56,595 nucleotides of DNA from an uncultured Clostridia bacterium (GCA_947573405.1 CANPFW010000003.1:1-56595), one strand, 5' to 3'. Positions 1 to 15,474 are shown, counted from the stretch's first letter. Numbers and translations are program-made. The notes: generated from the letters alone by a model not told the origin.

Positions 1-33
1 GGCTGTCATGCTTTTAGCATGACTGGGGGATTG
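1..33. repeat. Partial unit (F orientation) of the window-wide palindromic intergenic repeat family; cut by the window edge on the left and by the AT-rich island on the right
   Basis: ggctgtcatgcttttagcatgactgggggattg is near-identical to 21319-21350 and closely related to 17559-17591. Confidence 0.8.
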
Positions 34-381
34 GAAAGTTTATATAGATAAAAGTTCCAGAAAGACTGAGACTATTTTTATTTCAAATAAAAATGCCAGT
101 AAATCCGCATGGTTTTTTACTCTTTATAATAAATCAAATTTTTATGAGCGATTGTGCTGTTAAAAGCCAACTAATGGCTATTTAAAGAATAATTTTTTAT
201 TGTATACTTATATTAAGGATTATAACACCAGAGAAAAGGATAATAAGACAATAACAGATTTACCAAATTATTATATCTGTGTGTGACCTGTTTTACAAAG
301 ATTTAAGTAAATATAAATTAAATAATGGCTTATTAGAATTTACTTGAATAAGTATAATAGTAAAATTTATTTGGAGTGCGA

Positions 382-1698
382 ATGGAAATACTTGAAATTG
401 TACCATTGCTTCCTTTGCAAAAAACAATGTTATATAAAATATTGTCTAATCCAAGTATTCCTGTATTTGGTGAGCAGTGGAGATATAAAGTAACCGGAAG
501 GATAGATGTTTCCTTGATAGAAAAAGCATGGCAGAAAACAATAAATAGTTATGATATTCTGCATGGCGTTTTTCAATGGGAACATAGAAAATCCCCTGTT
601 TTTCTGATCCTGAAAAGCGCCGTAAACAGATGTCAGATATATCATCTGGAGAATTTCAAAGAAGCTGATAAGACAAAGCAAGCCGATAGGATCGCATGGA
701 AGGAATACCACAATCCGGTCAATCTAAATGAATTACCTATAAGAATGACCATTACACTATTATCTGAAAATTGTTGTGAATGGATAATTACTTCTAACCA
801 TATTTTATTTGATGGTTGGAGTAATTCAATAATTATGAATAATTTCATTCATAATTATTTCACCCTATGCGATAATCGAAAAATACAGACACAAAGTAAA
901 GGGCAGGCGTATTCTGATTATGTTCGTTATGTCTATCAGGAACAGAATAATTCGCAGCATATAAATTATTGGAAAAATTATATAAACGGGTATATTTTCT
1001 CACAACCATATACTCGAAAACGAAAAAACGGGAATCGCATAGAGCAATTTCCATTAACGGAAAGTCAAATCCAAATGATTCAAAGATTTTGCCGGTTAAA
1101 TGGTTTTACATTATCTGTTGTCCTTTATACCATATGGGCATCCCTTCTATACATAGAAAATCCCCGAAAAACGATCATTATCGGCGCAACTGTATCCGGT
1201 CGCAACTTATTGCCATGTTCATATGACGATGTAGTGGGGTTGTTGGCAAAAACATTGCCTATGCAAATTAGTTTTGATAATAACTCAAGTATTGTAGATA
1301 TTATGACTGGAATTCGAACAGATTTAATAGATATAGAAGAACATATGCACGTAACCCCTGAAATTTGGCTTGATATACTTCCCAATATCCAAGAATGTTT
1401 TTCTGAAGGCTTAACGATCCAGAACTATCCGGTACAGGCATATAACAATAAAGGCGAAATTGATTTTCAGATAGAGTTTTACCAATCTAACTATTATACA
1501 GATATGGATTTTTCAATTTCAATAAAAACATTTATACAGCCCAATTCACTGGAGATTAACTACTCCGCCGACCGTTATTCATCAAAAATGGTACATCACC
1601 GGATAAATCTATATTTACATATTCTTCAAAGTCTTATACAACTTACACAATCGGAAATTAAAAATACGTGTATTATAAGCTGGCTAAAAAATTTATAA
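382..1698 (+). CDS. Free-standing NRPS condensation (C) domain protein
   Basis: Condensation core motifs are readable: LPLQKTMLY (C1), YDILHGVF (C2), SNHILFDGWS (C3 HHxxxDG with first His replaced by Asn), YSDYVRY (C4), VGLLAKTLP (C5). GGAG at 373-376 lies 5 nt before ATG 382; the ORF track starts at GTG 376. Confidence 0.8.
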   Translation: MEILEIVPLLPLQKTMLYKILSNPSIPVFGEQWRYKVTGRIDVSLIEKAWQKTINSYDILHGVFQWEHRKSPVFLILKSAVNRCQIYHLENFKEADKTKQADRIAWKEYHNPVNLNELPIRMTITLLSENCCEWIITSNHILFDGWSNSIIMNNFIHNYFTLCDNRKIQTQSKGQAYSDYVRYVYQEQNNSQHINYWKNYINGYIFSQPYTRKRKNGNRIEQFPLTESQIQMIQRFCRLNGFTLSVVLYTIWASLLYIENPRKTIIIGATVSGRNLLPCSYDDVVGLLAKTLPMQISFDNNSSIVDIMTGIRTDLIDIEEHMHVTPEIWLDILPNIQECFSEGLTIQNYPVQAYNNKGEIDFQIEFYQSNYYTDMDFSISIKTFIQPNSLEINYSADRYSSKMVHHRINLYLHILQSLIQLTQSEIKNTCIISWLKNL

Positions 1699-1704
1699 TG
1701 AAAA

Positions 1705-2778
1705 GTGGTAATAATTATTATTAAGTTTAGTGTTCCTGCGGATTTTAAAGAGAATACCCTGAAAAAGCTGAAATATATAAACAGCTTATCTGAAAACAAA
1801 AAAATTGTAGAAGTGTATGGTCAAATAACGACAGGTAACATACTGGCATCAGGAAGAAATCCTCAGGTTTTGCCGCAAGTTGATTTGAATGAATTAAAAG
1901 CATACATAAAACAATGTGATAAATACGGTTTTGAATTTAACTATACATTGAATGCATCCTGTATGGGGAATAAAGAATTTTCAGCAGATATGCGCCAATT
2001 TATCCTCACGCTGGATAGGATAGGGGTTTCATCTTATACGCTCTCTATACCATATTTATTTGATTTAGTAGCTGAAGTCTTGTCAGAAAATAAAATAAAA
2101 GCTTCTGCAATCTGTGAAATCAACAGTGTGATGAAAGCGAAGCATTACAAAGAATTGCCGATAACCCGTATTGTAGTCGATCCCGATATTACCAGACGTT
2201 TTGATATTTTACGGGGAATCTGTAATGAATTTGGAGAAAATGTTGAAATTATAGTCAACAATGCCTGTATACAAAATTGCCCATATAAGATGTTTCATTA
2301 CAACCATGAGGCTCATGGGGGATTAGAGCATTCAAATGAAATAAATAACCAGTATTATTATCATAAATGTTCGTTACAGAAAGCACAAACAGATTATAAT
2401 TTTATAAAAATAAACTGGATACGACCAGAAGATTTACATTACTATGTTGAAACCGGCATAACACGTTTCAAAATCCATGGAAGAAACTATATAAATTCCG
2501 ACAATCTTTTGAAGGTAACCGAAGCTTATTTTTCTGAAAAATTTGATGGAAATCTTATGGACTTGCTAACGCTCTTTCAGCCATATAATGCTTTTCAGCC
2601 ATATATTGACAATAAAAAGCTGGATGGATTTATTAAACGATTTTATGACTACCCACATGCTTGTAATGAAATATGCGAGGCTTGCGGACATTGTTTATCT
2701 TACGCAAAAAAAAGTATGGACATGGAAGCCGTACATACTGTTAATGATTATGCAAAACAGTTATATAAAAAAATTTAG
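1705..2778 (+). CDS. Divergent U32-family (PrtC/UbiU/UbiV/RlhA-like) putative Fe-S protein, paralog 1
   Basis: The overall U32 TIM-barrel pattern is present: FSVPADF, IVEVYGQ..SGR, DLNELKAYI, GFEFNYTLNAS, IIVNNACIQNC. Conserved Cys are shared with the next ORF, including C-terminal CNEICEACGHC. Confidence 0.55.
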   Translation: MVIIIIKFSVPADFKENTLKKLKYINSLSENKKIVEVYGQITTGNILASGRNPQVLPQVDLNELKAYIKQCDKYGFEFNYTLNASCMGNKEFSADMRQFILTLDRIGVSSYTLSIPYLFDLVAEVLSENKIKASAICEINSVMKAKHYKELPITRIVVDPDITRRFDILRGICNEFGENVEIIVNNACIQNCPYKMFHYNHEAHGGLEHSNEINNQYYYHKCSLQKAQTDYNFIKINWIRPEDLHYYVETGITRFKIHGRNYINSDNLLKVTEAYFSEKFDGNLMDLLTLFQPYNAFQPYIDNKKLDGFIKRFYDYPHACNEICEACGHCLSYAKKSMDMEAVHTVNDYAKQLYKKI

Positions 2779-2811
2779 CCTGTTGGCTTTATAAATATAA
2801 GGAAAAGCATT

Positions 2812-3927
2812 ATGAATTATTATAGTATTCCTTCGGATTTTAAAGTTGAAAGTGTAGAACGATATATTAAATTAAATCAACGCTGTGAGGATAAAATTAC
2901 AGAAGTATACGGTCAGCTTAACAGTACGGAAAATATATTTGGTTCTGGTAGAACGTCAAATCAATTGCCTGAAGTTACATATAATGAGCTTAAGAATTAT
3001 ATTTCTTTGTTATCGCGCAATGGCTTCAGCTTTAATTATACTTTCAATGCATCATGTTTATCAAATATGGAATTTACAAAAGATGGACAACAGAAAATTA
3101 TTACATTTCTCAATAGATTGATAGATGCAGGAGTGAATTCTGTAACAGTATGTATGCCGTCTCTTATAGAACTGATTCATGAATTGAATTTACCGATACG
3201 GATAAAAAGTTCTACAGTATGCGGTGTTACCAATGGTGAAAAAGCCCGGGCATATCGTTCTTTAGGCGTTAGTCGCTTAGTAGCGGATGAAAGTATCAAC
3301 CGGGATTTTACCGCTTTACGACAAATGGTACAGGTTTTTCCCGATGATCTTGAATTAATCGTTAATGTAATATGCGATAAAAACTGTATTTATCGACCCT
3401 TCCACCATAATCAGATGTCTCATGATTGTAAATATCTCGAAAAATCTACAAGCTATTATTCACATAGATGCAGTATGCACAGAGCGCAAACGCCAGAAAA
3501 TATACTTAAAATGAATTTTATTAGACCAGAAGATATTATACATTATGAAAATATTGGCATTCATCATTATAAAGTTCAGGGAAGACAAGCAGCAGAAAAT
3601 GGAGATATTTTAAGAACCGTTGAGGCATATATGATGAAAAGCTATGAGGGAGATCTCCTTGAACTGTTGGACTGCTTTTTGCCAACCAATTCATTTCGTG
3701 TGGAAATAGACAACAAAAGGTTGGATGGATTTCTATTACCTTTTTTACAGGATAATTTTTGTCAAAGAGATTGTAAGAATTGCAATTATTGTCTTTCGTT
3801 TTTTAAAAAATTTTTGCCTTATGATGAAATAGATCATATCAATCAGATTGCAAATGAATTTTATAAAGGTACTGATGAATTTAGCAGAGATATCATGGAA
3901 TGGAGTAATAAAATAAATGGAAAATGA
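2812..3927 (+). CDS. Divergent U32-family putative Fe-S protein, paralog 2
   Basis: Colinear with 1705-2778: YSIPSDF, ITEVYGQ..SGR, TYNELKNYI, GFSFNYTFNAS, LIVNVICDKNC, HRCS, C-terminal CQRDCKNCNYC. Confidence 0.55.
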   Translation: MNYYSIPSDFKVESVERYIKLNQRCEDKITEVYGQLNSTENIFGSGRTSNQLPEVTYNELKNYISLLSRNGFSFNYTFNASCLSNMEFTKDGQQKIITFLNRLIDAGVNSVTVCMPSLIELIHELNLPIRIKSSTVCGVTNGEKARAYRSLGVSRLVADESINRDFTALRQMVQVFPDDLELIVNVICDKNCIYRPFHHNQMSHDCKYLEKSTSYYSHRCSMHRAQTPENILKMNFIRPEDIIHYENIGIHHYKVQGRQAAENGDILRTVEAYMMKSYEGDLLELLDCFLPTNSFRVEIDNKRLDGFLLPFLQDNFCQRDCKNCNYCLSFFKKFLPYDEIDHINQIANEFYKGTDEFSRDIMEWSNKINGK

Positions 3928-6900
3928 TAGAGTACATACAGTGGGGGATATTATAGATACAAAATTACCAAAATGGACGATACAAGAACGAATGAAAGAA
4001 ATGGCAAAAATTCAAAAGGATAAACCAGCCATTATAACTTTTCTCAATCAAGAAACAGATACACAGATTAATCAACCGGCCGATTCAGATATTCAATGGA
4101 TTTGCTTTGTGGCGGATAGGTTTACTGTTGTACGCCGTTTAGAGCGTCAGTTTATGCTCTTATCACGAGAAAATGTTCGGGTTATCTTGGATCAGACAGC
4201 ATATGAGATTTATTCGCTTTTTAATGGGAACTTATCTGTATCGGAAATATATAGGCAATACGTTATTGGCGGGAAAGGCACATGGTCGTGTGAAACAGTC
4301 GATGTAGAATCGTCTGTATCAATAGAAAAGAATATAAATTGTCATATGGAATTTTCTGGTCTGAATGGTCTCGTAAACTTCGCGCTGTTTCTGCGGCAAC
4401 ATGGTTTCTTAGTTGTTCATAAAGTAAAAGTTACTGCAGACTACCCAAAATACGAATTTTCTGAATACGACATTACAGAATCGAAAGTCGAAACGGATCT
4501 GAGCCAAATCGAACCTTGTAAAGTTTTGTTATTAGGGGATAAGCCCGGAATGGCCACTGTGGGCATTTTATATTTAGCTTCATATCTGGTTCAAAATGGA
4601 ATTTCGGCCAAATGCCTGCTTATTAACAAAGAATATAGTTTTCAAAAGTTTCTGGACAACCTATTATTGATACTGAATAATATGCGACCATCATATGTAG
4701 CTATTAGCATGAAATGGTTTCCTCATATTGAGCGGGTGTATGAAATTTCAAGATTCGTAAAACAGTATCAAAAAGATATTCATATCATAGTGGGCGGGGA
4801 CACAGCATCTCATTATGCAAGGGAAGTAATTCAGGAACCGACAATAGATTACGTGATATGTGGTGATGGGGAAGACGCTTTGCTGCAAATATGTAAAGGG
4901 ATTGTGCCTGCACCAAATACTTACTATAAGAAAAATGGCGATGTACATACGCCTGATTCATACATTACAAACAGTGAAAAAAATGTATACTCTCTTTTAC
5001 CACCTGAAAAAATCATGATAGATCCCAAAATGCTTATGTATATTACGTTATATTTACCAACGTCTAAAGGGTGCATGCATGATTGTCTTCAATGTGGAGG
5101 AACTATGCATATTCAAAGGAAAAGTATGCACAGAAATCCTGGCTTATTTACACGACCAGCTCATATTGTAAGGCAGGATATTATTCAAACACAAAATCAT
5201 GTTGCATCTTATATGTTCAGCATTTGTGATACGGTTAGAGAGGATTTTTCTTACTTCGCGCTTATGTGGAAAGATTTAAATCTTTCAAATCATGTTTGCG
5301 CTCTGTTTAGTACATCAATAATCGATGAAAAAATTATTGATCTTGCCGCAAAGACTTTTTGTTATGTGCGTCTGGGTATCGACATGTGCAGTTTATCGGA
5401 GCGGCATAGAGAAAAAATTAACAATCATACAAACGGAAAAGAACAAATTAGCGATACAATGCTCTACAGTTTTTTAGATATATGTGAGCGGTATGATAAT
5501 TGTGAAGTTGATATTTATACGATAGCCGGTATGCCATTTTTTGAGGAGAGTGATATACAAGCTGAGAATGAGACAATAGATAAGCTGTTAAAGTACAGGT
5601 GTTTTAGAGGGATAGAGTGGGGACGTCTCCACGCTCAGCCAGGAGCCAAGTTGCTTGCAGGCGCTGAGCAGTATGGATTGAAGGCCGATGCTTGTGATTA
5701 TACGTCATTTCACCAATACAGCAGACTGAATCAGGCAAACAGTGACATCTATCCTGCAATGCCGTATTATCATTATCCCTATATTTCCTATGTAGATAGC
5801 GAGAAAAGCCGGCATGTTTATGGTCATTATTTTGAAATGAGTGAGAAATGTCGAAAGAACGCCCGAACTGTAAATCAAACAATCACAAAAGAAATCAGTT
5901 ATTATGATTTATATGCCCTTTCTTGTCAGATGGCAAAGGCACTGTTACACGCAGGGTTACAGTCACAGCAAAATGTAATTTTATATTTTAACGACCGTTT
6001 ATATTTATCAGTTGCTATATTATCTGTTATTCTGGCAGGAGGGTGCTATATCCCATTGGATCCAATGTTTCATGAAAATCTAATTGAGCATTTAGCTTCT
6101 GAAGATACTGTTTTTAAATTATTTACCGATGCTTCCATCTCATGCAATAAGCGGTTGGATTTTTGTGATTTGTTGCACAATAGCCATTCTGAAATGGTGT
6201 TGCCTGAAGGAAATGCCAGATTATTGCTCTATCGTATCTATTCCTCCGGTTCGACGGATACCCCAAAATGCATTGCAATACGGCAGGAGAGTGTTACGAA
6301 TTATACCAACTGGAGAATAGTTAATTATAATATTAGTGACCATGATGTGGTGCTGCAAATGCTGTCTGAAGCATTTGACGGCTTCGGATCTAATTTTTAT
6401 ACGACTTTGATGGCAGGCGGTTGCCTGGTTATGCCGACACCCAAGCAAAATCGAGATATCTCATTTATTAAGACGATTTGTAAGAAATATCAAATAACAC
6501 ATACCAGTTTGCTCCCATTTCAACTGGAAATGATAGTTCAGAATGATGTTGACGTCCTGAAGTCTTTTAAATCGGTAGTTGTGGCGGGAGAGACCTGTCA
6601 CGGAGATCTGCTTAAAAACATAAATCATTTTTATCCTGCATTAATTGTGATCAACGAATATGGTCCGACGGAATGTAGCATTGCAGTTACCGCGAATATC
6701 GGCTTGAATGAAGATTCCATATATAATATTGGTCGTCCGATTTCAAATGTAGAGGTGTCGCTTGTAAATGCGCAGGGACTTCCGGCATCAAATGGAGAAG
6801 CTGGTGAAATATGGATTACTGGATGCTGCTTGTTATCTGGCTATGGCTTTTCGGACAATACGGACTCTTCAGATATACCCAAGGTTTTCAAAACGAATGA

Positions 6901-6982
6901 CACAGCTCGCTATGACATCATTACAAAAGAACATATTATGTGCATATATTTGTTGAAAACACTTAGCTATCAAGCGTATTAG
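3917..6982 (+). CDS. Fusion protein: PqqD-like N-terminal segment + cobalamin-binding domain + radical SAM core + adenylation domain lacking its C-terminal subdomain
   Basis: PqqD-like segment at aa ~60-125 (ENVRVILDQTAYEIYSLFNGNLSVSEIYRQY). B12-binding-like segment at aa ~200-330 (KVLLLGDKPG...IIVGGDTAS...ICGDGEDAL). CxxxCxxC = CMHDCLQC at nt 5072-5095. Adenylation motifs: YSSGSTDTPK (A3), FDGFG (A4), NEYGPTE (A5), GEIWITGCCLLSGY (A6), FKTNDTARY (A7). No A8-A10 motifs before the stop. Overlaps the upstream gene by 11 nt. Confidence 0.7.
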   Translation: MENDRVHTVGDIIDTKLPKWTIQERMKEMAKIQKDKPAIITFLNQETDTQINQPADSDIQWICFVADRFTVVRRLERQFMLLSRENVRVILDQTAYEIYSLFNGNLSVSEIYRQYVIGGKGTWSCETVDVESSVSIEKNINCHMEFSGLNGLVNFALFLRQHGFLVVHKVKVTADYPKYEFSEYDITESKVETDLSQIEPCKVLLLGDKPGMATVGILYLASYLVQNGISAKCLLINKEYSFQKFLDNLLLILNNMRPSYVAISMKWFPHIERVYEISRFVKQYQKDIHIIVGGDTASHYAREVIQEPTIDYVICGDGEDALLQICKGIVPAPNTYYKKNGDVHTPDSYITNSEKNVYSLLPPEKIMIDPKMLMYITLYLPTSKGCMHDCLQCGGTMHIQRKSMHRNPGLFTRPAHIVRQDIIQTQNHVASYMFSICDTVREDFSYFALMWKDLNLSNHVCALFSTSIIDEKIIDLAAKTFCYVRLGIDMCSLSERHREKINNHTNGKEQISDTMLYSFLDICERYDNCEVDIYTIAGMPFFEESDIQAENETIDKLLKYRCFRGIEWGRLHAQPGAKLLAGAEQYGLKADACDYTSFHQYSRLNQANSDIYPAMPYYHYPYISYVDSEKSRHVYGHYFEMSEKCRKNARTVNQTITKEISYYDLYALSCQMAKALLHAGLQSQQNVILYFNDRLYLSVAILSVILAGGCYIPLDPMFHENLIEHLASEDTVFKLFTDASISCNKRLDFCDLLHNSHSEMVLPEGNARLLLYRIYSSGSTDTPKCIAIRQESVTNYTNWRIVNYNISDHDVVLQMLSEAFDGFGSNFYTTLMAGGCLVMPTPKQNRDISFIKTICKKYQITHTSLLPFQLEMIVQNDVDVLKSFKSVVVAGETCHGDLLKNINHFYPALIVINEYGPTECSIAVTANIGLNEDSIYNIGRPISNVEVSLVNAQGLPASNGEAGEIWITGCCLLSGYGFSDNTDSSDIPKVFKTNDTARYDIITKEHIMCIYLLKTLSYQAY

Positions 6983-6996
6983 AACTAAAAGAATTT

Positions 6997-8166
6997 TTAT
7001 TGTTCTAACTTATATTCATTTTTCAACAGATCTATATATAATGGAATATCATCAATTTTCGGATTTTCAAAATGGAAGCAATAGAAAGAGCAACTTCTGT
7101 ATTTTTCTCCATTGTGTGACCAGATTACTGTATGAGGGCATTGACCAGTTTGTTTTTTATATCTGTCAAAGACATCACAATCTTGACATTTCTTATTTTT
7201 CATATATTCAATAATTTGCGGTGGGAACTTATCAAATCTATCTTCACGCCCTTTAATTTTCAGAAAAAGGTTTAATACTAAGTAAGTTTTCATATCCTTC
7301 AGAATAATATTTCTATATTCAGGAACTGTATAATAACTGAGTTCTTCTTTCCATAAGTCATCTTCATATCGTATTTCTGCAAGTGCCTTTTTTTCTAAAT
7401 AATAATTACCTTTACGCTCACCTTTATATTCAACATTCGGAAATTTTTGCATATATTCATAAAAAGCTAAATAAAATTTTTTTGCTTCTTTATCCCAAGT
7501 ATAAATTTTATCGTTGACCCATACTATTTCCGGAAGTTGTGAAAGATCAACTAAATATTTATAATCCAGTGTATAGAAATTAAGCTTGAATTGATCTATA
7601 TTTTTAATAAATTTTTGCTGGTCCTCATTGATTTCCTTACAGCTGCAATATGTTTTCAGTGTGTTTATTAGTTTAGGATTTGATGGGAAAGAAACCTCTA
7701 ATAGACTCTCTTTTATTTTATTGTTATTATAGCCACTTATGGTAAAGCCAAACTCTATAAGTTTGTTGATTATCAAATAATAACGGGTTATTGCTTGTTT
7801 TTTGATCTGAGCGATGAACGACTGCCCGTCCGATATTAATGTATTGTTTTGTACTTTGCCTGAATCAAAAAGTGCATACAGAACGTCCAACAATCTATGT
7901 AGAGAGTTTCTCGATTCTCTGAGAGGCCCCCTCACGCATAAATGTATTGCATGGTTGTTTTGCTCATGAACATCTATCAATAGCAGCCCATAGTCTTCCG
8001 GATGTTCAGCCATATCGCAGTATATTTTTTTTATTAATTCGATTAAATCTCTAAAATCGTCAATAAAACTTTTGTCAAGACCTTTTTTTAGAGGCAATTC
8101 GTCAGGTAAAGGAAGAATTGAATTTACATATTCCAGCGCTTGATATTGTACATGATACTTGTACAT
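6997..8166 (-). CDS. Hypothetical protein with Cys-rich C-terminus, opposite strand to the cluster
   Basis: 389-aa intact ORF. AAGGAG lies 7 nt upstream of ATG 8166. C-terminal KCQDCDV...CPH...CSFYC. No family recognised. Confidence 0.5.
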   Translation of the reverse strand: MYKYHVQYQALEYVNSILPLPDELPLKKGLDKSFIDDFRDLIELIKKIYCDMAEHPEDYGLLLIDVHEQNNHAIHLCVRGPLRESRNSLHRLLDVLYALFDSGKVQNNTLISDGQSFIAQIKKQAITRYYLIINKLIEFGFTISGYNNNKIKESLLEVSFPSNPKLINTLKTYCSCKEINEDQQKFIKNIDQFKLNFYTLDYKYLVDLSQLPEIVWVNDKIYTWDKEAKKFYLAFYEYMQKFPNVEYKGERKGNYYLEKKALAEIRYEDDLWKEELSYYTVPEYRNIILKDMKTYLVLNLFLKIKGREDRFDKFPPQIIEYMKNKKCQDCDVFDRYKKQTGQCPHTVIWSHNGEKYRSCSFYCFHFENPKIDDIPLYIDLLKNEYKLEQ

Positions 8167-8407
8167 TTCTGTACTCCTTTCAATATTTTAGTTTACCATT
8201 ATTATAACAAGTTATTGTGCAAAATGCAATATAAATTTTAAAATACACAAAAAATAATGTACAACTTGCCGGCTATAATTCATATGAAATATTATGAACG
8301 GTAATTGCTTATCAATCCCCAAAATTATATGATTAGATATGACATAGATAGCAAACTTTTTTAATGACCGTATTATTGAAAAGCTTACTTAATCAGGAGA
8401 TTAAATT

Positions 8408-10069
8408 ATGGATAGAGATATAGCGATTATTGGTATATCGATATTGTTTCCCAAAGCAGAAACATTGGATACTTTATGGAGCGGATTTTATTCAAGAAAT
8501 TCCACAAAGCCGAAAATATTATACGGAAAAATATTGGCACTATGCTTTTCCGAATCGACCATATAATATACCACAGGTTGCATATATTGATGAAATAGAT
8601 CAATTTGATTATTCATATTTTAGATTATCAAAGCATGACGCTGATTATACGGATCCAGCTCATCGTCTGTTTTTACAAACTGCGGTCCGCTGTCTGGAAG
8701 ATGCCGGATATTTTAGCGAAAATATCAAAGGATCTGATACCGGAGTGTTTGTAGGGTACGGGGGAGATTTTGATTACACCCAGATGGTAGCCATGAAAGA
8801 TTGTGCTAATATGAAAACGCATTCCGTTGGATTGCTAGCATCCTTTATTACTTCTCGATTATCTTATTTGTATGATTTAAAGGGCCCTGCGATGGTAGTT
8901 GACACATCGTGTTCATCTTCTTTGGTCGCGTTACATTCTGCGTGTAACAGCATAAGAGCGGGAGAATGTACTATGGCTATAGTTGGTGGAGCACACCTGT
9001 ATACGGTACCAGTGTTAAGAGGTGGGCTTGGAGTACAATCTTCTGACTGCCGAACACGATCCTTTGATGATAGTGCAGATGGTACAGGTTCGGGAGAAGG
9101 CGTGTGTGCCATATTAATAAAAAAAGCAAGGGAAGCATATAAAGACGGGGATCATATTTACGCTGTTATCAAAGGGAGCGCTGTTGTTAGTGATGGAAAT
9201 GCGGCCGGAATCGCCAGCCCAAACCTTATGGCGCAAAAGCTGACAATTCAAAAGGCTTGGGAAGATGCGAATATTGATCCTTGTACAATTTCGTATGTTG
9301 AGGCTCATGGCACGGGGACACGTATTGGCGACCCCATTGAGTTAAAAGCATTGTCTGAAGCCTTTTCAGATTACAGCAGTAATAGGGGCTTTTGTGCTGT
9401 TAGTTCAATAAAATCCAACATGGGTCACTTAGGATATTGTGCAGGCCTGGCAGGTTTAGTAAAAGCTGTTCTTCAATTAAAGCATCAGACTATTGTTTCT
9501 ACTGCTCATTTTCATAAGTTGAACAAGAATATAACTTTGGATAAAAGTGCGATATATATCAGCAAGGAAAATAAACTCACAGACAAGTTTAATTCCCTCA
9601 AATTACGATATTATTTGTGCAAATTATGTTGCGGGAGAGAATTATGATTGGAAGAAATTATACCCTGATAAAGTTAATCGGGTTTCATTACCCGGGACAA
9701 CACTACAAACGACAAAGTGCTGGTTATCATTCTCTGATCAATTAACCGAGACGAATGATACAACAGGAACTGATAACTGTCCTTTTCAATTTTTTCAATC
9801 GCTTGTACAAGACAAATGTCAAGATCCAATATTAATAGATCATTTAATTCTTTTGTGGATATTTAGAAATCAGATTGGTAATCAGGAGCTTCAGTCCGGT
9901 GATAATTTGTATGATATGGGTGCCGATTCTATCACGGCACTTCAAATACTGCGATATATTAACCAAATTTATAATTTTAACGCCGGATGAATTTTTGCTT
10001 TACCAATCAGTTGATGAAGTAGCGACTCTCATATATAAGTATAGAAAAGAAACGTTTGTGGAGAAATAG
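8408..10069 (+). pseudogene. Type I PKS-like ketosynthase plus carrier protein, disrupted by at least three frame changes and an apparent internal deletion
   Basis: ATG 8408 with AGGAG RBS gives MDRDIAIIGISILFPKAETLDTLW, then the frame shifts into ORF 8430-9647. That ORF has VDTSCSSSL active-site Cys, EAHGTGT and KSNMGHL. ORF 9547-9990 has ANYVAGENYDWKKLY and carrier motif GADSITALQ. ORF 9875-10069 has the carrier C-terminus LTPDEFLLYQSVDEVATLI. Confidence 0.7.
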
Positions 10070-10074
10070 CGGCT

Positions 10075-11038
10075 ATGAATGATATAATTCATTTAAATGA
10101 TTTCTATTATATTCCTTCATTTAATGAATTAAGTTGTGAAGAAATTATAGAAACATGCTGTTGTGATAATGAACTTATTAATAGCAATGGGGAACATTAT
10201 TTTAAGCCATACAGTAAAGATTATAAAATACTGTATTGTGTTTTTCCTTTCTATATTGAAGATACTTGTAGAAAATTTATCTCAATTCTTTCATTGCGGA
10301 GTAGAAGTTCAGGAGAGCTTATCTCATGCTGAAATTAAGAGATTATTGACTGATAAAATTCCTATATTATTCATTATGGATCCTCGTGTAGTGCCTTATA
10401 ATACACGTAATTTGAATCCCACAGGTCAGCAGGAAATACACAGTGCGGTTCTTTATGGTTTTAACGATCTGACAGCCTGCTATATGGTTGCAGATTCTGC
10501 AATTGCAGATGATACGGGATTTATACACTGTGATAAAGTTACTATTGATCAGGCATTTTTACGTAACCATACAAAAGGTTTTCTTTATTGTATATAGACA
10601 GTGTGCCGATTCATCAACCCAACATGCGGCTTGTAGTTTATGAGACAATCTATGAATTTCTTCATCCACAAAAAAGTCCCGCTTTTTGTGAAGGGGTGGA
10701 TGCCATTAACTATATGATTGCGTTACTTAAGGCAAATAAGTTCAATTTTGTGGAGCTACAGTTTTTGATCCAAGCGTATTTTATGCCATTTTTTCTATTA
10801 CATAGATGAGTGTTTTAAGTTTTTTAAAAATGTGTCGGAAAATAGGTCCAAGATAAAACTGGAAAAAAACAAATGGGACATTTTTTACTATAAGCATCTA
10901 CTTAGATATTCTCACAATAGCAATTACAAGATAATGGTCGAAAATTTTCAGAAGTTATTTATATTTTTTGTTACGATGCTTGATGAATTTCTTTATGATT
11001 GGAAACAACAAATTTCAAAGGAGAATAATTATGAATAA
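10075..11038 (+). pseudogene. One gene shattered into four frame-shifted ORFs (possibly BtrH-like/papain-fold acyltransferase; family call weak)
   Basis: ORFs 10075-10332, 10163-10597, 10588-10809 and 10832-11038 abut in alternating frames. The HSAVLYGFND...VADSA pattern resembles Cys/His papain-like folds. Confidence 0.35.
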
Positions 11039-11180
11039 TCTCGATATGCAAAGCCAACTTATTAATATATACAAAAAATTTAATAAAAGCGATAAGGTTA
11101 CGGAATTAACGCTCTCTACCCAATTAAGTTATTTGGATATAAATTCAATTTGGTCTTGTAGACAAAATTACGTTTCTTGA
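11031..11180 (+). pseudogene. Short ORF with strong RBS, possibly the N-terminal stub of a small carrier protein
   Basis: AAGGAG lies 7 nt upstream of ATG 11031. MNNLDMQSQLINIYKKF...LSYLDINSI then runs into unrelated sequence. The junction with the glycosyltransferase remnant is at ~11140-11150. Confidence 0.25.
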
Positions 11181-11184
11181 TCAT

Positions 11185-11526
11185 GTGCCTCAAAAGGATC
11201 TTTTTCAGGTTTATGAAAAAGCAAAAGTTATGGCCTTTCCTTCAATAAGTCATGAAACGTTCGGCATGAGTGGTGCGGAAGCCGTAGCAGCAGGAATTCC
11301 TGTGGTAGCTTTTCAAATCGATGGAATAGGTGAATGGCTTCAGGATGGCATTAATGGTCGTATAGTTAAACAGGGTGATATCGGCGCCTATGCTGCTGCT
11401 TTGAATGAGATACTGACAGATGATAACATTTATAACTCTTATCATGAAAACGCAATGAAATGGCGTGCGGATCTGGATTATCCTGGGCAGGTATCCTCGC
11501 TATGCAATATGTATCTAACATTATAA
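11185..11526 (+). pseudogene. C-terminal third of a GT1/GT4-type glycosyltransferase (N-terminal ~250 aa missing)
   Basis: VPQKDLFQVYEKAKVMAFPSISHETFGMSGAEAVAAGIPVV contains the EX7E motif. The same frame reads GLVDKITFLDH upstream to a TAA at 11140-11142. There is no room for the N-terminal Rossmann domain. Confidence 0.65.
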
Positions 11527-11533
11527 AAGCTTT

Positions 11534-12316
11534 ATGAAAAATAATTATTTTAATATGCAGCAGCCGAAGTATAAGATATCCATACCAGGTTCGAGGATCA
11601 TGGTGATTGCTCCGCATCCTGATGATGAGGTTATTGGTTGCGGCGGGACTATTTTAAAGGGATTGAATCAACAGGTATTTGACATTGTTTATATTACAAA
11701 TGGTGAAAAAGGCTTTGTTTCAGAACATGCTGGAACTGCAGAAATCAGAATACAAGAAGCTGTAAATAATTGGAATTCTTATAATAACATTCACTTGCAT
11801 TTTATAGGTTTAAAAGATTCTGACATTATCTGTGATCTGGATTCTATTAGAAAAATAGGTGAAGTTATTCTGACAAATCAGCCGGATTGTATTTTGCTGC
11901 CAGATGTAACAGATCATAATATTGACCATCTTGCTTGTAATTTACTTATACACGAGGCATTGCTGCTCTTTTCATACACACATATATTAATTTGGGGATA
12001 TGAAGTTTGGTCAGCAATTAATCCGGATATTGTAGTTAATATTACAGAGTATTACCAGGGAAAATGTCAAATGATTCATAATTATATATCACAGTTTCAA
12101 CAGTTTGACTATGAAACCCTTTTTACACTCAATAATAAACGTACGGCTATTTATGGAGTTTTATTCGCAGATAATACACATAATGTGCATCGAGTCGAAC
12201 AGAAACAACGCATGAAAAAGAATCTGCCCTTTACCAGAGAGTGGCTTTATGCAGAAGGGTTTCGCAGATATACATTTTCAGAGCATGCTAAAGAATTGTC
12301 CGATAAATTGAAATGA
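11534..12316 (+). CDS. PIG-L/LmbE family deacetylase
   Basis: VIAPHPDDEVIGCGGT and HNIDH motifs; 260 aa, intact. Confidence 0.8.
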   Translation: MKNNYFNMQQPKYKISIPGSRIMVIAPHPDDEVIGCGGTILKGLNQQVFDIVYITNGEKGFVSEHAGTAEIRIQEAVNNWNSYNNIHLHFIGLKDSDIICDLDSIRKIGEVILTNQPDCILLPDVTDHNIDHLACNLLIHEALLLFSYTHILIWGYEVWSAINPDIVVNITEYYQGKCQMIHNYISQFQQFDYETLFTLNNKRTAIYGVLFADNTHNVHRVEQKQRMKKNLPFTREWLYAEGFRRYTFSEHAKELSDKLK

Positions 12317-12334
12317 TTATAGGGGAGGATTCAA

Positions 12335-13162
12335 ATGCGACAGTATAGAGATATAACAATATTAGGGAGATGCAACCTATCTTGTCAATATTGTGATCAT
12401 CCTGATTTCAGTGTGTGTGAAAATCAAGTGATCCAATCCTTGGACGTTATAATGAAACGTTTTGAACGAGACAAAATGTGTTTTCGTATTGAGTCTAGGG
12501 GGGAGATAACCTTATACCCTCATATCATTAATCATATTAAGAATTATGCTGATAAAGGATATCGACTGGAATTGCTTAGCAATGGTCTGCTGATTGACGA
12601 TGTCCTGAATGATTATAAAAAAATAGGTTGTGTTATATCTTTGGATGGTCATACAACTAAGATGAATGAGATGCGGGGTTTGTCACAGTCTCAGGTGAAT
12701 CGGATTTTAAATAACATTTTTAAATATGATGCAGATATTCAGATGGTTTATTTGAATCAAAGTGCAGAAGAAATTAATGCTTTTATCCGATTCCTTCAGG
12801 ACAATCACTTTAAAGGACTGTTGCACATATTTCCGTGTTCATTAAAAAACAAAAATATGTCAAAGTGCTTGTCTTACGATGATTTAATCCACACTGAATT
12901 TATTCCGCCTAAAGAATATTTTGAACGCTGGAAATACATATACGAAAATAATTCACGAAATTTTATTTGTGATTTTTATAAAAATGGATATATATATTAT
13001 ATATTTAACCGTAATATAAAAATGGCAAAGTGTGATGGAAACGCATCGATTTGGAGAATATTGCACCCACTTGGTAATGAGCGGAATGTTTCCATTGACT
13101 GTCTGAATTGCATTAATAATAATGAATTTAATAATCAAAGAAAATTTGTTGCATTAAATTAA
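12335..13162 (+). CDS. Small radical SAM enzyme with C-terminal Cys cluster (BtrN/twitch-like size)
   Basis: GRCNLSCQYCDH (CxxxCxxC), RGEITLYP (GGE-like SAM motif), C-terminal CDGN...CLNC; 275 aa. Confidence 0.75.
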   Translation: MRQYRDITILGRCNLSCQYCDHPDFSVCENQVIQSLDVIMKRFERDKMCFRIESRGEITLYPHIINHIKNYADKGYRLELLSNGLLIDDVLNDYKKIGCVISLDGHTTKMNEMRGLSQSQVNRILNNIFKYDADIQMVYLNQSAEEINAFIRFLQDNHFKGLLHIFPCSLKNKNMSKCLSYDDLIHTEFIPPKEYFERWKYIYENNSRNFICDFYKNGYIYYIFNRNIKMAKCDGNASIWRILHPLGNERNVSIDCLNCINNNEFNNQRKFVALN

Positions 13163-13174
13163 TGGGTATATGAA

Positions 13175-14521
13175 TTGCTGATTTTATTATATGATAAAGT
13201 TGAGGTGATGAATCCACTGAGCCGATTTATAAATGATTTGATGCAGGATATCTGGAAAAATGAATCCGTCAGGTTCAAAAAGTTATATGAATATTATATG
13301 AACATGCCTGAAAAACAAATAACTGCATTGTTAGAAAGTAATAAAGCGCTGGTATATGAAAACGATGGAAATAATATGACTAGCTTAATTACTTGTGGTT
13401 GTCAGCATTTTTATTCCAATTTTTCAATTGCCGGATGCAGCATGTGTAACTTACACCGTAAATCTGTTGAAACAGCTGCTGCTTTAACCGCGTTGCGTGA
13501 TAGAAATCGCTGTAAATATTCAGAAATGGTTTGCAAAAGCTTTACAAATGCACGAGGAGTTGTTCAGTCACGAACTATACACGAATATTTATTTAGCTAC
13601 GATTTTTTAAATCCAATGGAAATCCCTGATGAATGCTTGGAAATGCTGTTATCTGGAGAGGGGGGAGTTTTCAGCAGGAAGCCATGGATTTATGAGTTTG
13701 AGACAACGGCACGTAGCATTAGCAAGGTAAGGTTGAAATTACTCAAGCGTTATGTGGGAAATAGAGATATTATTATACGTATTGGAGTTGAATGTGCGGA
13801 TGAATTTATTCGAAATGAATGGCTGAACAAAAATTTATTTAATCAGCAAATAATAGATGCAATTTCTTTATGTCATGAAGAAGGAATCAAGATAACAGGC
13901 AATATTTTACTGGGTATTCCAGGGTTTACAGAAGAACTCAGTATAAATCAGTTTATTGATACGGTTCATTGGCTTTTTAGCTGCAACATGGATTATATAT
14001 CCTGTTCCTTACTTAGCCGGACAGAGAAGTCTTTCCAGGGATTTCTTCATAGTTCCCTAAAAAATAATGATGTATTGCAAAAATATGGTTTAGCTTATAT
14101 GGAACATACCGGACTGCCATGGTTATTTTCCTTAGTTCGAGCTATCCACCAATTATATAATAGTGAACCGGAAACGCTAAAAAAAATATTTTTCGGGCAA
14201 TTTATTGACAGCTATATTGAACAATCCCATAGCCCTGCTTTCAATCAAACGAGAGAATGTTCTTGCGTAAAAGAATTTAATCAAATTTTGACATTAGGTA
14301 AATTGCCAGACGATTGGAGAAACATACACTTTTTTGCTGATTATAAGGCAGATCCTTGTTATCCTTATTATATGAATTTGTGTGAGCGGCAAAATCAAAT
14401 ATCTAATGTTATGGATAATATGAGGATTTTATCAAAAGAAGTCATTGATAAAAAATGGGGTGAAGGAGACCGGCGATTATATGATTTTAATATGAATTTA
14501 AAGAATCATTATTTTGAATGA
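13175..14521 (+). CDS. Radical SAM superfamily protein with non-canonical cluster motif (Elp3/TIGR01210-01212-like)
   Basis: CGCQHFYSNFSIAGCSMCNL (C-x11-C-x2-C) and IRIGVECADEFIRNEWLNKN...ITGNILLGIPGFTEE, typical of the rSAM barrel. The start is uncertain (TTG 13175 or ATG 13208). Confidence 0.5.
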   Translation: MLILLYDKVEVMNPLSRFINDLMQDIWKNESVRFKKLYEYYMNMPEKQITALLESNKALVYENDGNNMTSLITCGCQHFYSNFSIAGCSMCNLHRKSVETAAALTALRDRNRCKYSEMVCKSFTNARGVVQSRTIHEYLFSYDFLNPMEIPDECLEMLLSGEGGVFSRKPWIYEFETTARSISKVRLKLLKRYVGNRDIIIRIGVECADEFIRNEWLNKNLFNQQIIDAISLCHEEGIKITGNILLGIPGFTEELSINQFIDTVHWLFSCNMDYISCSLLSRTEKSFQGFLHSSLKNNDVLQKYGLAYMEHTGLPWLFSLVRAIHQLYNSEPETLKKIFFGQFIDSYIEQSHSPAFNQTRECSCVKEFNQILTLGKLPDDWRNIHFFADYKADPCYPYYMNLCERQNQISNVMDNMRILSKEVIDKKWGEGDRRLYDFNMNLKNHYFE

Positions 14522-14531
14522 GGAATATAAA

Positions 14532-15143
14532 ATGTGTTTTGACGATATTACCAATTTATTTAACGTAAAGAAATATACATATGAATTAACATTATCGGAA
14601 AATAATATACCCGAAGTATGCAGAAAGCAACTCCTTATGCCTATGCATGATCTTAATGGAACGCAATATTAATTTTATATAAATTTGGAAAATCATTACG
14701 TTACGCTTTGGAGTGTTGATACTAAAAAGTTTGTTAATTTTTCATGTTCATACTTAAAGCAATATGAAATGAAGAAACAACTTATGTATGGTAGAATCAA
14801 TATTCACAATCTGATAAAAAATAATAACAAGATATATGCTTTACCGGACTTTGCAAATTTTATTTGGTGTTTTGACTTATTTAATGATGGTTTCACAGTC
14901 GCTTGTGAAAGCTTCGATCATATCTATGGATTATCCAATACTATTTATAACGATGCTATTTACTATTCAGCATCTCGCCATAATGATCAAGTGATTAAAA
15001 ATCCTAATAGAGAAATAATCAGGAACCAGATTGCCTGCTTACATTTTCTCTTTCAGGGGATGCATCCAAAATTGCAGTTTTTGTTCTTCGTCTTTTTGGG
15101 CATAGAAATCGCTTGTCTGAAAAATGGCGTGGTGAATGATTAA
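14532..15143 (+). pseudogene. Hypothetical ORF interrupted by an in-frame TAA (14670-14672); alternatively a 46-codon ORF plus a separate 152-aa ORF
   Basis: GAGGA lies 7 nt upstream of ATG 14532. The 46 codons (MCFDDITNLF...NGTQY) are in the same frame as ORF 14685-15143, which only has a TTG start. Confidence 0.35.
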
Positions 15144-15353
15144 TGCATTAAAAATCTAGTGGATTCCGGTTTGACAATGGCTTTTGTAATCCCGAATTGC
15201 AGAAAAAGGCACTTGCCGTATCCTTTTTGAAATCAGGAAAAACAATTTGATATTAGCAAACACGTTAGCAGGTCAGAAAAGTAAAAGGAAATGAGGTAAA
15301 AATAGGATGAAACAAAACAAGCCGAATCCACAGCATGGTAACGGCTTGTTTGC

Positions 15354-15387
15354 AAAAAAAATCACGCAGTTTTAAAAACTGCGTGAT
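15354..15387 (-). terminator. Rho-independent terminator of tRNA-Arg (followed by a second hairpin at 15313-15352)
   Basis: Minus strand: stem atcacgcag/ctgcgtgat then a run of 7-8 U, 11 nt after the tRNA CCA end. Confidence 0.6.
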
Positions 15388-15398
15388 TTCAATGAATT

Positions 15399-15474
15399 TG
15401 GCGCGCCCTAGAGGATTTGAACCTCTGACCTACCGGTTCGTAGCCGGGCACTCTATCCGCTGAGCTAAGGGCGC
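15399..15474 (-). tRNA. tRNA-Arg (anticodon ACG), CCA encoded
   Basis: The reverse complement folds as a cloverleaf. Acceptor GCGCCCT/AGGGCGC, D arm GCTC-AGCGGATA-GAGT, anticodon loop CTACGAA, T arm AGAGG-TTCAAAT-CCTCT, discriminator G, CCA. Confidence 0.9.

What the first reader, a model, noticed from the sequence alone, without database searches (positions are those of the whole stretch)
3917..6982. Single polypeptide joining RRE-like, B12-binding, radical SAM and adenylation domains; A domain ends right after core A7
Seen in the translation:
- PqqD-like stretch at aa ~60-125.
- B12-binding-type Rossmann stretch at aa ~200-330.
- CMHDCLQC at nt 5072-5095.
- From aa ~655, a clear adenylation domain (A3 YSSGSTDTPK, A4 FDGFG with the alpha-amino-binding Asp, A5 NEYGPTE, A6, A7 FKTNDTARY).

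The frame then diverges (DIITKEHIMCIYLLKTLSYQAY) and stops at 6982. That is 15 nt before the stop of a convergent gene, so A8-A10, including the catalytic Lys, are absent.

A covalent rSAM-adenylation fusion is unusual domain architecture. The truncation suggests the original gene continued, probably into a carrier domain, and was cut by a rearrangement.
Basis: partly seen in the sequence, partly recalled or inferred. Interest (0 to 1): 0.65.

Follow-up and report, generated by a model that had tools for sequence, protein, structure and literature searches.

The report
Deletion-truncated radical-SAM/adenylation NRPS gene
This gene is a broken copy, cut by a real 2.4-kb deletion, of a 1189-residue peptide-synthetase module in which a vitamin-B12-dependent radical SAM enzyme is built into the amino-acid-activating domain, a widespread module type for which I found no published description.

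Summary
ORF 3917-6982 (1021 aa) has a B12-binding domain, a CX3CX2C radical SAM core and an NRPS adenylation (A) core that stops two residues after motif A7. The N-terminal "PqqD-like" stretch gets no HMM support. Its confident AlphaFold model does match RiPP recognition elements best.

The truncation reading is also right. Contigs 99.6% identical encode a 1189-aa protein that continues through A8-A10 and a carrier domain. The window lacks 2381 nt there. That removes the A sub-domain, the carrier domain and a whole 538-aa B12 radical SAM gene. A 31-nt remnant is read out of frame.

Independently assembled contigs from 5 mouse-gut runs (3 studies) span the junction. Seven runs (7 studies) carry the intact form. 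Five further deletions (17, 386, 5, 5646 and 922 nt) wreck the rest of the low-GC biosynthetic island, so this copy is a pseudogene in a decaying cluster.

New here:
- The RRE-like + B12 + rSAM block (~610 aa) sits inside the A domain, before core A1.
- It occurs in 139 clusters (50% identity, E<=1e-30), mostly multi-module NRPSs from anaerobes.
- It goes with several pocket signatures.
- U32-like genes often sit beside it.

On-line C-methylation is the likeliest function, but this is inferred.

The parts
3917..6982 (+). Truncated ORF (1021 aa). It is a deletion allele of a 1189-aa [RRE-like + B12 + rSAM]-interrupted A-PCP NRPS module.
3962..4048 (+). Residues ~16-44 (LPKWTIQERMKEMAKIQKDKPAIITF): the start of the A domain (helix + first strand), separated from core A1 by the insert.
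   Evidence: Splice test: joining this stub to residue 654 onward extends the Pfam AMP-binding match to profile position 1-4 and adds 4.7-15.5 bits in three family members. Consensus TIxxLFExQVxxxPxxxA in 51 relatives.
4088..4450 (+). RRE-like (PqqD-fold) domain, residues 58-178.
   Evidence: AlphaFold pLDDT 91.4. Foldseek top hits are TbiB1, ThcOx, PbtF-RRE, LynD and TruD. No HMM support.
4553..4885 (+). Cobalamin (B12)-binding Rossmann domain, residues 213-323.
   Evidence: Pfam PF02310, E 1.4e-11.
5057..5869 (+). Radical SAM core and C-terminal helical region, residues 381-651. The CX3CX2C cluster motif is at nt 5072-5095.
5879..6919 (+). A-domain core, motifs A1-A7, residues 655-1001. By-eye 9-residue pocket signature DGSSVAEIA; the tenth residue (A10 Lys) is lost.
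6920..6950 (+). 31-nt piece retained from inside the deleted interval (= L001 7215-7245), read out of frame. 125 nt are missing on its left and 2256 nt on its right.
6920..6982 (+). Out-of-frame tail ITKEHIMCIYLLKTLSYQAY plus the TAG stop. From 6951 it runs through what was intergenic DNA downstream of the lost rSAM gene.
376..1698 (+). Free-standing condensation-domain gene, intact.
   Evidence: Pfam Condensation, 6.3e-50.
1705..3927 (+). Two tandem U32-like genes (357 and 371 aa), intact. This kind of gene accompanies the fusion in several phyla.
6997..8166 (-). Convergent 389-aa gene with no family hit. It is present at the same place in intact clusters.
8430..9990 (+). Remains of the 689-aa KS-ACP gene, with three deletions: 17 nt at 8471-8477, 386 nt at 9575/9576 and 5 nt at 9982.
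10270..10271 (.). Junction of a 5646-nt deletion. It removed most of the 800-aa gene, PCP-82, A-475, the DUF362/Fer4 gene and the start of the 329-aa gene.
11146..11147 (.). Junction of a 922-nt deletion. It removed most of PCP-84 and the N-terminal two thirds of the GT4 glycosyltransferase.

Best explanation
Shown:
- The ORF is a pseudogene allele of a 1189-aa single-module NRPS protein.
- In the intact protein the A domain starts at residue ~16. After its first helix and strand it is interrupted by a ~610-aa insert: an RRE-like winged-helix domain, a cobalamin-binding domain and a radical SAM core. It resumes at core A1 (residue ~660) and runs through A10 into a carrier domain (PCP).
- In this genome a complex deletion took 125 nt and 2256 nt and left a 31-nt remnant between them. 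It removed A8-A10 (with the catalytic Lys), the PCP and the entire next gene, a 538-aa B12 radical SAM enzyme. It shifted the frame, giving 20 junk residues and a stop.
- Five more deletions disable the KS-ACP gene and remove about 6.6 kb of further cluster genes.

Inferred:
- Without the A sub-domain and the carrier domain, the truncated product cannot load a carrier, so the pathway is dead in this strain.
- In intact strains the built-in class-B radical SAM enzyme most likely C-methylates the amino acid handled by its own module, at an unactivated carbon. It would do so while the substrate is held as a PCP thioester, or just before activation.
- The RRE-like domain would serve as a docking element.
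- The neighbouring U32-like pair would supply a further oxygen-independent modification.
For: Domains.

Full-length allele:
- P0002 is 1189 aa and 990/1001 identical up to the break, with AMP-binding_C and PP-binding after it.

Deletion map:
- Window 1-6920 = L001 171-7090 at 99.6%.
- Window 6920-6950 = L001 7215-7245.
- Window 6943 onward = L001 9494 onward.
- The missing DNA is nowhere else in the 2.05-Mb assembly.

Not an assembly artefact:
- Logan contigs of X1, X3, X4 (study P1), X2 (P2) and X5 (P3) cross the junction with 0 differences.
- X6, X7, X9, X13, X14, X15 and X18 (7 studies) hold the intact form.

Other deletions.

Insert lies inside the A domain:
- Splice test.
- Conserved stub in 51 relatives.
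- A1 always lies 91-101 residues after the rSAM signature WGRLHAQPG.

Fold of the insert:
- MgmA 2.4e-17, TsrM 2.4e-16, TokK 2.5e-13, CysS 4.3e-13, OxsB 7.8e-13. Four of these five are methylases. TokK and CysS were crystallised with pantetheine-linked substrates (entry titles).

Family size and architecture:
- 139 clusters at E<=1e-30, mostly 1100-5600-aa NRPS proteins.
- C-(rSAM)A-T modules confirmed by Pfam.
Against: - No biochemical data exist for any member, so methylation is inferred from fold neighbours only. OxsB, BchE-type and other cobalamin rSAM enzymes perform other chemistry.
- The rSAM part has no PDB sequence hit below E 0.1.
- The RRE assignment rests on marginal Foldseek E-values (0.02-0.4).
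- The truncated ORF keeps an intact rSAM block. Natural ~800-aa relatives (P0035, P0037, P0039) have only an A1-A2 remnant, so some residual stand-alone activity cannot be excluded.
- Junction support comes from assembled contigs (k = 31), not raw reads.
- One or two of the holder runs may be the sample the window was assembled from.
Confidence: 0.85

Rival explanations
1. The truncated protein is still functional. It would work as a stand-alone RRE-B12-rSAM enzyme carrying an inert A-core, kept by selection after the rest was lost.
For: - The first 1001 codons are open and 99% identical to the intact allele, with pN/pS about 0.27 (11 synonymous, 11 non-synonymous changes).
- The three upstream genes are intact.
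- Related ~650-aa stand-alone enzymes exist, as do ~800-aa forms with only an A1-A2 stub.
Against: - Overall divergence is only 0.4%, so openness says nothing about selection.
- The end of the ORF is out-of-frame junk.
- The partner rSAM gene, KS-ACP, both free PCPs, the second A enzyme and others are deleted or frameshifted in the same haplotype.
- The intact form was found in more runs and studies (7 runs in 7 studies, against 5 in 3).
Confidence: 0.08
2. The junction is an assembly or binning artefact, and the real genome carries the full-length gene.
For: - The window comes from a fragmented assembly (125 contigs, 82% complete).
- The retained piece is 31 nt, equal to a common k-mer size.
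Against: - The flanks share only 1 nt and 4-8 nt with the retained piece, so no k-mer graph could join them without reads that span the junction.
- Contigs assembled separately from five runs in three studies carry the identical junction with 0 mismatches. Three of them also carry deletion junctions 2 and 3, and X1 also carries junction 4.
- The missing 2.4 kb is absent from the whole assembly.
Confidence: 0.02
3. In the intact family the built-in cobalamin rSAM enzyme is not a methyltransferase. It would carry out another radical reaction on the tethered residue, such as rearrangement, cyclisation, C-C or C-heteroatom bond formation, or epimerisation.
For: - OxsB (ring contraction) and AprD4 (dehydratase) are also strong fold hits.
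- NCBIfam's best rSAM model is the uncharacterised TIGR04190, far below its cut-off.
- The insert accompanies several different pocket signatures, so the chemistry must suit varied side chains.
Against: - Four of the five best-matching enzymes are methylases (MgmA, TsrM, TokK, CysS).
- Every tailoring role I know of for cobalamin rSAM enzymes in NRPS pathways is C-methylation. DscE is from PMC12858407. Arg1 and CysS appeared in the papers listed, but the role I give them is my own knowledge.
Confidence: 0.3

Closest known systems
Interrupted adenylation domains of NRPSs, i.e. A domains with an embedded methyltransferase, ketoreductase or monooxygenase (for example in thiocoraline, kutzneride and pyochelin synthetases; own knowledge)
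   Same: A tailoring enzyme is inserted in the A-domain polypeptide, so that one module both activates and modifies its residue. The A core reads through the insert (splice test).
   Different: - The insert is a ~610-aa RRE-like + cobalamin + radical SAM unit, not a class-I SAM methyltransferase, KR or Ox domain.
- It sits before core A1, in the N-terminal hairpin. As far as I know, the known sites are between A2 and A3, between A4 and A5, or between A8 and A9.
CysS and TokK/ThnK: cobalamin-dependent radical SAM C-methylases acting on pantetheine- or carrier-linked substrates (PDB 9n1b-d, 7kdx, 7kdy)
   Same: Same fold class (Foldseek E 2.5e-13 to 4e-12). They were crystallised with pantetheine-linked substrates (entry titles), which is what an in-module enzyme would face.
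   Different: They are free-standing enzymes. Sequence identity is 14-15%. No PDB chain matches the rSAM part by sequence below E 0.1. They lack the RRE-like domain.
DscE (discodermin), and Arg1 (argyrin): stand-alone B12 rSAM C-methyltransferases in NRPS pathways
   Same: Cobalamin rSAM chemistry used to modify non-ribosomal peptide residues (DscE: PMC12858407; Arg1's role is my own knowledge).
   Different: They act in trans. DscE was assayed on the free peptide discodermin D. Here the enzyme is covalently part of the module.
RiPP maturases with an N-terminal RRE followed by a radical SAM domain (own knowledge for the RRE-rSAM arrangement), and the RRE domains matched here (TbiB1, LynD/TruD, PbtF)
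   Same: The domain order is an RRE-like winged helix followed by rSAM. The best fold matches of residues 58-178 are RREs.
   Different: No precursor peptide gene is evident. The unit is embedded in an NRPS. No PqqD HMM hit. An extra beta-hairpin lies between helices 2 and 3.
TIGR04190 (B12-binding/radical SAM family Ta0216)
   Same: Best NCBIfam radical SAM model for residues 212-560 (E 1.4e-25).
   Different: The score of 89.9 is far below the 500-bit cut-off, so the protein is not a member. That family is uncharacterised.

Membership tests
NRPS adenylation domain (ANL superfamily) | N-terminal core with motifs A1-A7 (Pfam AMP-binding) | tested here: met
   PF00501 E 1.7e-51, residues 655-976. 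With the N-terminal stub spliced on, the profile is covered from position 4.
NRPS adenylation domain (ANL superfamily) | C-terminal sub-domain with A8-A10 and the catalytic Lys | tested here: not met
   Absent from the window ORF: TIGR01733 is covered only to position 335 of 409 and there is no AMP-binding_C hit. Present in the intact allele P0002 (GRNERLVK.., NGKVDY).
NRPS module | Carrier (PCP) domain with the GGxS phosphopantetheine site after the A domain | tested here: not met
   Lost in the window. The intact allele has PF00550 and DIGGNSL.
Class B (cobalamin-dependent) radical SAM enzymes | N-terminal B12-binding Rossmann domain followed by a radical SAM core with CX3CX2C | tested here: met
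   PF02310 E 1.4e-11. C386/C390/C393 are invariant. Foldseek hits are MgmA, TsrM, TokK, CysS and OxsB at 1e-17 to 1e-12.
Class B (cobalamin-dependent) radical SAM enzymes | Cobalamin binding and methyl transfer (or other cobalamin-dependent chemistry) | not testable with these tools
   Needs reconstitution and an assay.
RRE / PqqD-like domain | Match to the PqqD sequence family | tested here: not met
   0 of 24 members hit PF05402 at E<=10. The profile search of PDB sequences found nothing relevant.
RRE / PqqD-like domain | Winged-helix fold (three-stranded sheet plus three helices) | tested here: inconclusive
   Model pLDDT 91.4. Six of the top ten PDB hits are RRE-bearing RiPP proteins (TMt 0.65-0.69 for the small RRE domains), but the best E is 0.02 and a beta-hairpin is inserted.
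RRE / PqqD-like domain | Binds a leader peptide | not testable with these tools
   No precursor gene was identified. The binding partner is unknown.
Interrupted A domains | A foreign catalytic domain lies between parts of one A domain that together form a complete A domain | tested here: met
   Removing the insert extends the AMP-binding match to profile position 1-4 and adds 4.7, 14.6 and 15.5 bits in P0002, P0033 and P0028. The stub is conserved in 51 relatives.
Interrupted A domains | Insertion at one of the described sites (A2-A3, A4-A5, A8-A9; own knowledge) and an insert of MT, KR or Ox type | tested here: not met
   The insert lies before A1 and is of B12-rSAM type.
Pseudogene / deletion allele | A near-identical intact allele exists, the break is a frameshifting deletion, and the junction is present in independent data | tested here: met

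The most novel reading that the evidence does not exclude
The intact relatives form an undescribed class of NRPS module, found mostly in uncultured organisms from anoxic habitats. A RiPP-style unit (RRE-like domain + cobalamin radical SAM enzyme) has been inserted into the N-terminal hairpin of the A domain. The module would then carry out radical C-H functionalisation, probably C-methylation, of its own residue on the assembly line. Nearby U32-like genes may add an oxygen-independent modification. The class spans several pocket signatures: DGSSVAEIAK-like, one identical to the GrsA Phe code, Tyr-like and Asp-like. That suggests a portable tailoring cassette.
Probability: 0.45. Interest if true: 0.75.

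Novelty: new variant of a known kind. Interest (0 to 1): 0.55.

Why it matters
For this genome, the finding means the island's NRPS-PKS pathway should not be counted as functional. It is a polymorphic, decaying cluster in a mouse-gut bacterium. Intact and deleted alleles both circulate, which gives a natural knockout pair for linking the cluster to a metabolite.

More broadly, the intact protein points to a sizeable module type for which I found no description: 139 clusters at 50% identity. In it, cobalamin radical SAM chemistry is hard-wired into an adenylation domain. If it methylates tethered residues, three things follow:
- It would explain how strict anaerobes could make C-methylated non-proteinogenic residues on NRPS lines.
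- It would add a new insertion site and a new insert type to the interrupted A domains.
- It would offer a portable cassette for engineering.

Tried and rejected
- Pfam scan of 24 N-terminal segments for PqqD: no hit.
- Profile search of that segment against PDB sequences: only noise.
- phmmer of the rSAM part against PDB sequences: nothing below E 0.1.
The intact form was instead inferred from split contig pieces laid on the window.
- L003-L006 were not available in the Python box. The right-hand deletions were mapped with the genome search and DNA alignment instead.
- pN/pS between the window and the intact allele: too few changes to be informative.
- Literature: four full-text searches for a radical SAM domain fused to, or inside, an A domain or NRPS found only stand-alone enzymes.
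- Two searches for the remembered Tyr specificity codes found nothing. The 'Tyr-like' reading of DGSSVAEIAK therefore remains a lead from memory, not a result.
- A regex-based extraction of pocket residues was too strict. It was replaced by alignment columns checked against distances from the rSAM signature.
- Rejected: the idea that the convergent 389-aa gene is an insertion that broke the A domain. It is in the same place in intact clusters.


Full report
**1. What is in the window**

ORF 3917..6982 (+) encodes 1021 residues.
- Pfam finds a B12-binding domain (residues 213-323, E 1.4e-11), a weak Radical_SAM match (381-511, E 0.13) and AMP-binding (655-976, E 1.7e-51, profile positions 17-383 of 384).
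- NCBIfam adds TIGR04190, a B12/radical SAM family, over residues 212-560 (1.4e-25).
- The amino-acid-adenylation model TIGR01733 is covered only to position 335 of 409, so the A8-A10 part is missing.
- The motif CMHDCLQC is C386/C390/C393 at nt 5072-5095. These three Cys are invariant in 48-51 relatives.

The gap to the convergent gene's stop codon is 14 nt rather than 15.

**2. The truncation is real and is a deletion**

The closest database protein, P0002, is 1189 aa. It is 990/1001 identical up to ..FKTNDTARYDI and then continues with A8, A10 (NGKVDY) and a PCP (DIGGNSL). Its contig L001 carries these genes in order:
- C domain
- U32
- U32
- the 1189-aa gene
- a 538-aa B12 radical SAM gene
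- the convergent 389-aa gene
- KS-ACP
- an 800-aa gene
- PCP
- A

The window maps onto L001 as follows:
- Window 1-6920 equals L001 171-7090 (99.6%).
- Window 6920-6950 equals L001 7215-7245.
- Window 6943 onward equals L001 9494 onward.

So 125 nt and 2256 nt are missing on either side of a 31-nt remnant. The remnant is now read in another frame, and the frame then runs into former intergenic DNA to a TAG. Lost are the A sub-domain, the PCP and the whole 538-aa gene, which NCBIfam places among BchE/PhpK/HpnJ-like B12 rSAM enzymes. The missing DNA is nowhere else in the 2.05-Mb, 125-contig assembly.

**3. It is not an assembly artefact**

| Form | Runs (study) | Evidence |
|---|---|---|
| Deleted | X1, X3, X4 (one study), X2 (second study), X5 (third study) | Separately assembled contigs cross 6920-6950 with no difference |
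| Intact | X6, X7, X9, X13, X14, X15, X18 (seven other studies) | Contigs align as three pieces separated by about 124 and 2250 nt |

- All runs whose label is shown uncoded are mouse gut or mouse metagenomes; most of the others carry coded organism labels.
- The flanks share only 1 nt and 4-8 nt with the remnant, so a k-mer graph could not create the join without reads that span it.
- Caveat: these are contigs, not raw reads, and one or two of the holder runs may be the window's own source.

**4. The whole cluster is eroding**

Compared with the intact alleles L001 and L003, the window also lacks the following:

| Loss | Position in window | What it damages |
|---|---|---|
| 17 nt | 8471-8477 | KS-ACP gene |
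| 386 nt | 9575/9576 | KS-ACP gene |
| 5 nt | 9982 | KS-ACP gene |
| 5646 nt | 10270/10271 | Most of the 800-aa gene, PCP-82, A-475, DUF362/Fer4, start of the 329-aa gene |
| 922 nt | 11146/11147 | PCP-84 and two thirds of the GT4 gene |

- Junctions 2 and 3 are seen in X1, X2 and X5. Junction 4 is seen in X1.
- Microhomology at the junctions is 0-4 nt exact.
- Together with the 2381-nt loss, about 9.4 kb is gone from an island of roughly 24-25 kb.
- The island is low in G+C (30-39% against 44-53% beyond it). It ends at tRNA-Arg(ACG) at 15399-15474.
- Divergence from the intact allele is only 0.4%, so the decay is recent. pN/pS is uninformative.

**5. Anatomy of the intact protein**

- *The insert lies inside the A domain.* Residues ~16-44 (LPKWTIQERMKEMAKIQKDKPAIITF) resemble the very start of an A domain. 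In relatives this stretch reads LFEEQARKTPDRVAL and similar. I joined this stub to the sequence from residue 654 on. The Pfam AMP-binding match then extends to profile position 1-4, and the score rises by 4.7, 14.6 and 15.5 bits in three members. The stub is conserved in 51 relatives. A1 always follows the rSAM signature WGRLHAQPG by 91-101 residues. The ~610-aa block is therefore an insert in the A domain, before core A1.
- *Residues 58-178.* The model is confident (pLDDT 91.4, pTM 0.85). Its best PDB matches are RiPP recognition elements: TbiB1 5v1v, ThcOx, PbtF, LynD and TruD, with best E 0.02. Sequence models do not see PqqD.
- *Residues 1-661.* The model has pLDDT 89.4. It matches cobalamin radical SAM enzymes: MgmA 2.4e-17, TsrM 2.4e-16, TokK 2.5e-13, CysS 4.3e-13 and OxsB 7.8e-13.
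- *The A-PCP part.* It is an ordinary NRPS A-T unit, matching LgrA at 1e-98 and GrsA 1amu at 1.9e-45.

**6. The family**

- An exhaustive search with the insert finds 139 clusters (50% identity) at E<=1e-30. Most are 1100-5600-aa NRPS proteins with the insert inside, and about 15 of the listed full-size hits are stand-alone.
- Pfam confirms C-(rSAM)A-T modules, alone or within two-module proteins.
- Genome hits come from Clostridia/Bacillota, Aminicenantes, Acidobacteriota, Chloroflexota, Bacteroidales and Deferrimicrobium metagenome-assembled genomes.
- U32-like genes lie next to the fusion in 7 of about 18 loci, across phyla.
- The ten pocket residues of the insert-bearing A domains fall into several classes:
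  - DG[STA]S[VI][AG]E[IV][ATV]K, about half of them, including this gene (DGSSVAEIAK)
  - DGTITAEV[AM]K
  - DASTVAAVCK
  - DAWT[IV]AA[IV]CK, the GrsA Phe signature
  - DIFHLGMTFK
  - DL[TS]K[VIA]GHIGK
  - others
- From memory, several of these are Tyr, Phe and Asp codes. I could not confirm this in the paper library.

**7. Mechanism (inferred)**

The nearest structures are mostly methylases. Two of them, CysS and TokK, were crystallised with pantetheine-linked substrates. Stand-alone B12 rSAM methylases already tailor NRPS products, for example DscE (PMC12858407). The most likely role is therefore radical C-methylation of the module's own residue, in cis. The RRE-like domain would act as a docking element. 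Other cobalamin-rSAM chemistry is not excluded. In the window's allele the product cannot load a carrier, and its partner genes are gone. It is best called a pseudogene.

**8. Literature and novelty**

Four full-text searches found no description of a radical SAM enzyme inside an A domain or NRPS module. Database names are generic. The window's copy itself is an ordinary deletion pseudogene. The architecture it reveals is a new variant of the interrupted A domain.

Noticed in passing
window 1705-3927: Two tandem, distant U32-family genes (Pfam E 1.5e-6 and 1.9e-10; no NCBIfam hit). U32-like genes sit beside the rSAM-A fusion in 7 of about 18 loci from different phyla, which suggests a functional partnership. 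From my own knowledge, U32 members UbiU/UbiV are O2-independent hydroxylases.
   Followed up: partly
window 8430-9990: The KS-ACP gene (689 aa when intact) carries three separate deletions: 17, 386 and 5 nt. The catalytic KS domains are still recognisable by Pfam.
   Followed up: yes
window 10270/10271 and 11146/11147: Two further deletion junctions (5646 nt and 922 nt) removed six genes in whole or in part. The ORF fragments at 10075-11180 are what remains of a 329-aa gene and a small carrier protein.
   Followed up: yes
window 6997-8166 (-): A 389-aa gene with a Cys-rich C-terminus and no Pfam or NCBIfam hit. It is the only minus-strand gene of the island and is conserved at the same position in intact clusters.
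   Followed up: partly
window 1-15474: The island has 30-39% G+C against 44-53% for the rest of the contig, and it ends at tRNA-Arg(ACG) at 15399-15474 (-). This fits horizontal acquisition at a tRNA gene.
   Followed up: partly
window 6540, 6629, 6767: The SNPs A>G, T>C and A>G travel with the intact allele in the runs where those positions were covered by the contigs laid (6767 in six runs, 6540 and 6629 in four). The deleted haplotype is therefore a distinct lineage rather than a recurrent event.
   Followed up: partly
P0035, P0037, P0039 (Clostridium sp. CF011, Ruminiclostridium papyrosolvens and one other): Relatives of about 800 aa consist of the A stub, the RRE-like domain, B12, rSAM and only the A1-A2 part of the A core. 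One is flagged LOW QUALITY by NCBI. They may be another decay route, or a step towards stand-alone enzymes.
   Followed up: no
L003 7373-9775 (lost from the window): An 800-aa protein of the intact cluster has no Pfam hit and only a marginal NCBIfam hit (a PHA-depolymerase-type motif, E 8.5e-5). It is conserved next to PCP and A genes in L007 and L009.
   Followed up: no
window residues 775-784 and 991-999 (nt 6239-6268, 6887-6913): In this sub-clade the A3 loop reads YSSGSTDTPK (Asp where Gly is usual) and A7 reads FKTNDTARY (TND instead of TGD). The intact allele's A8 also lacks the usual RG-R-IE residues. The A domain is atypical even when intact.
   Followed up: partly
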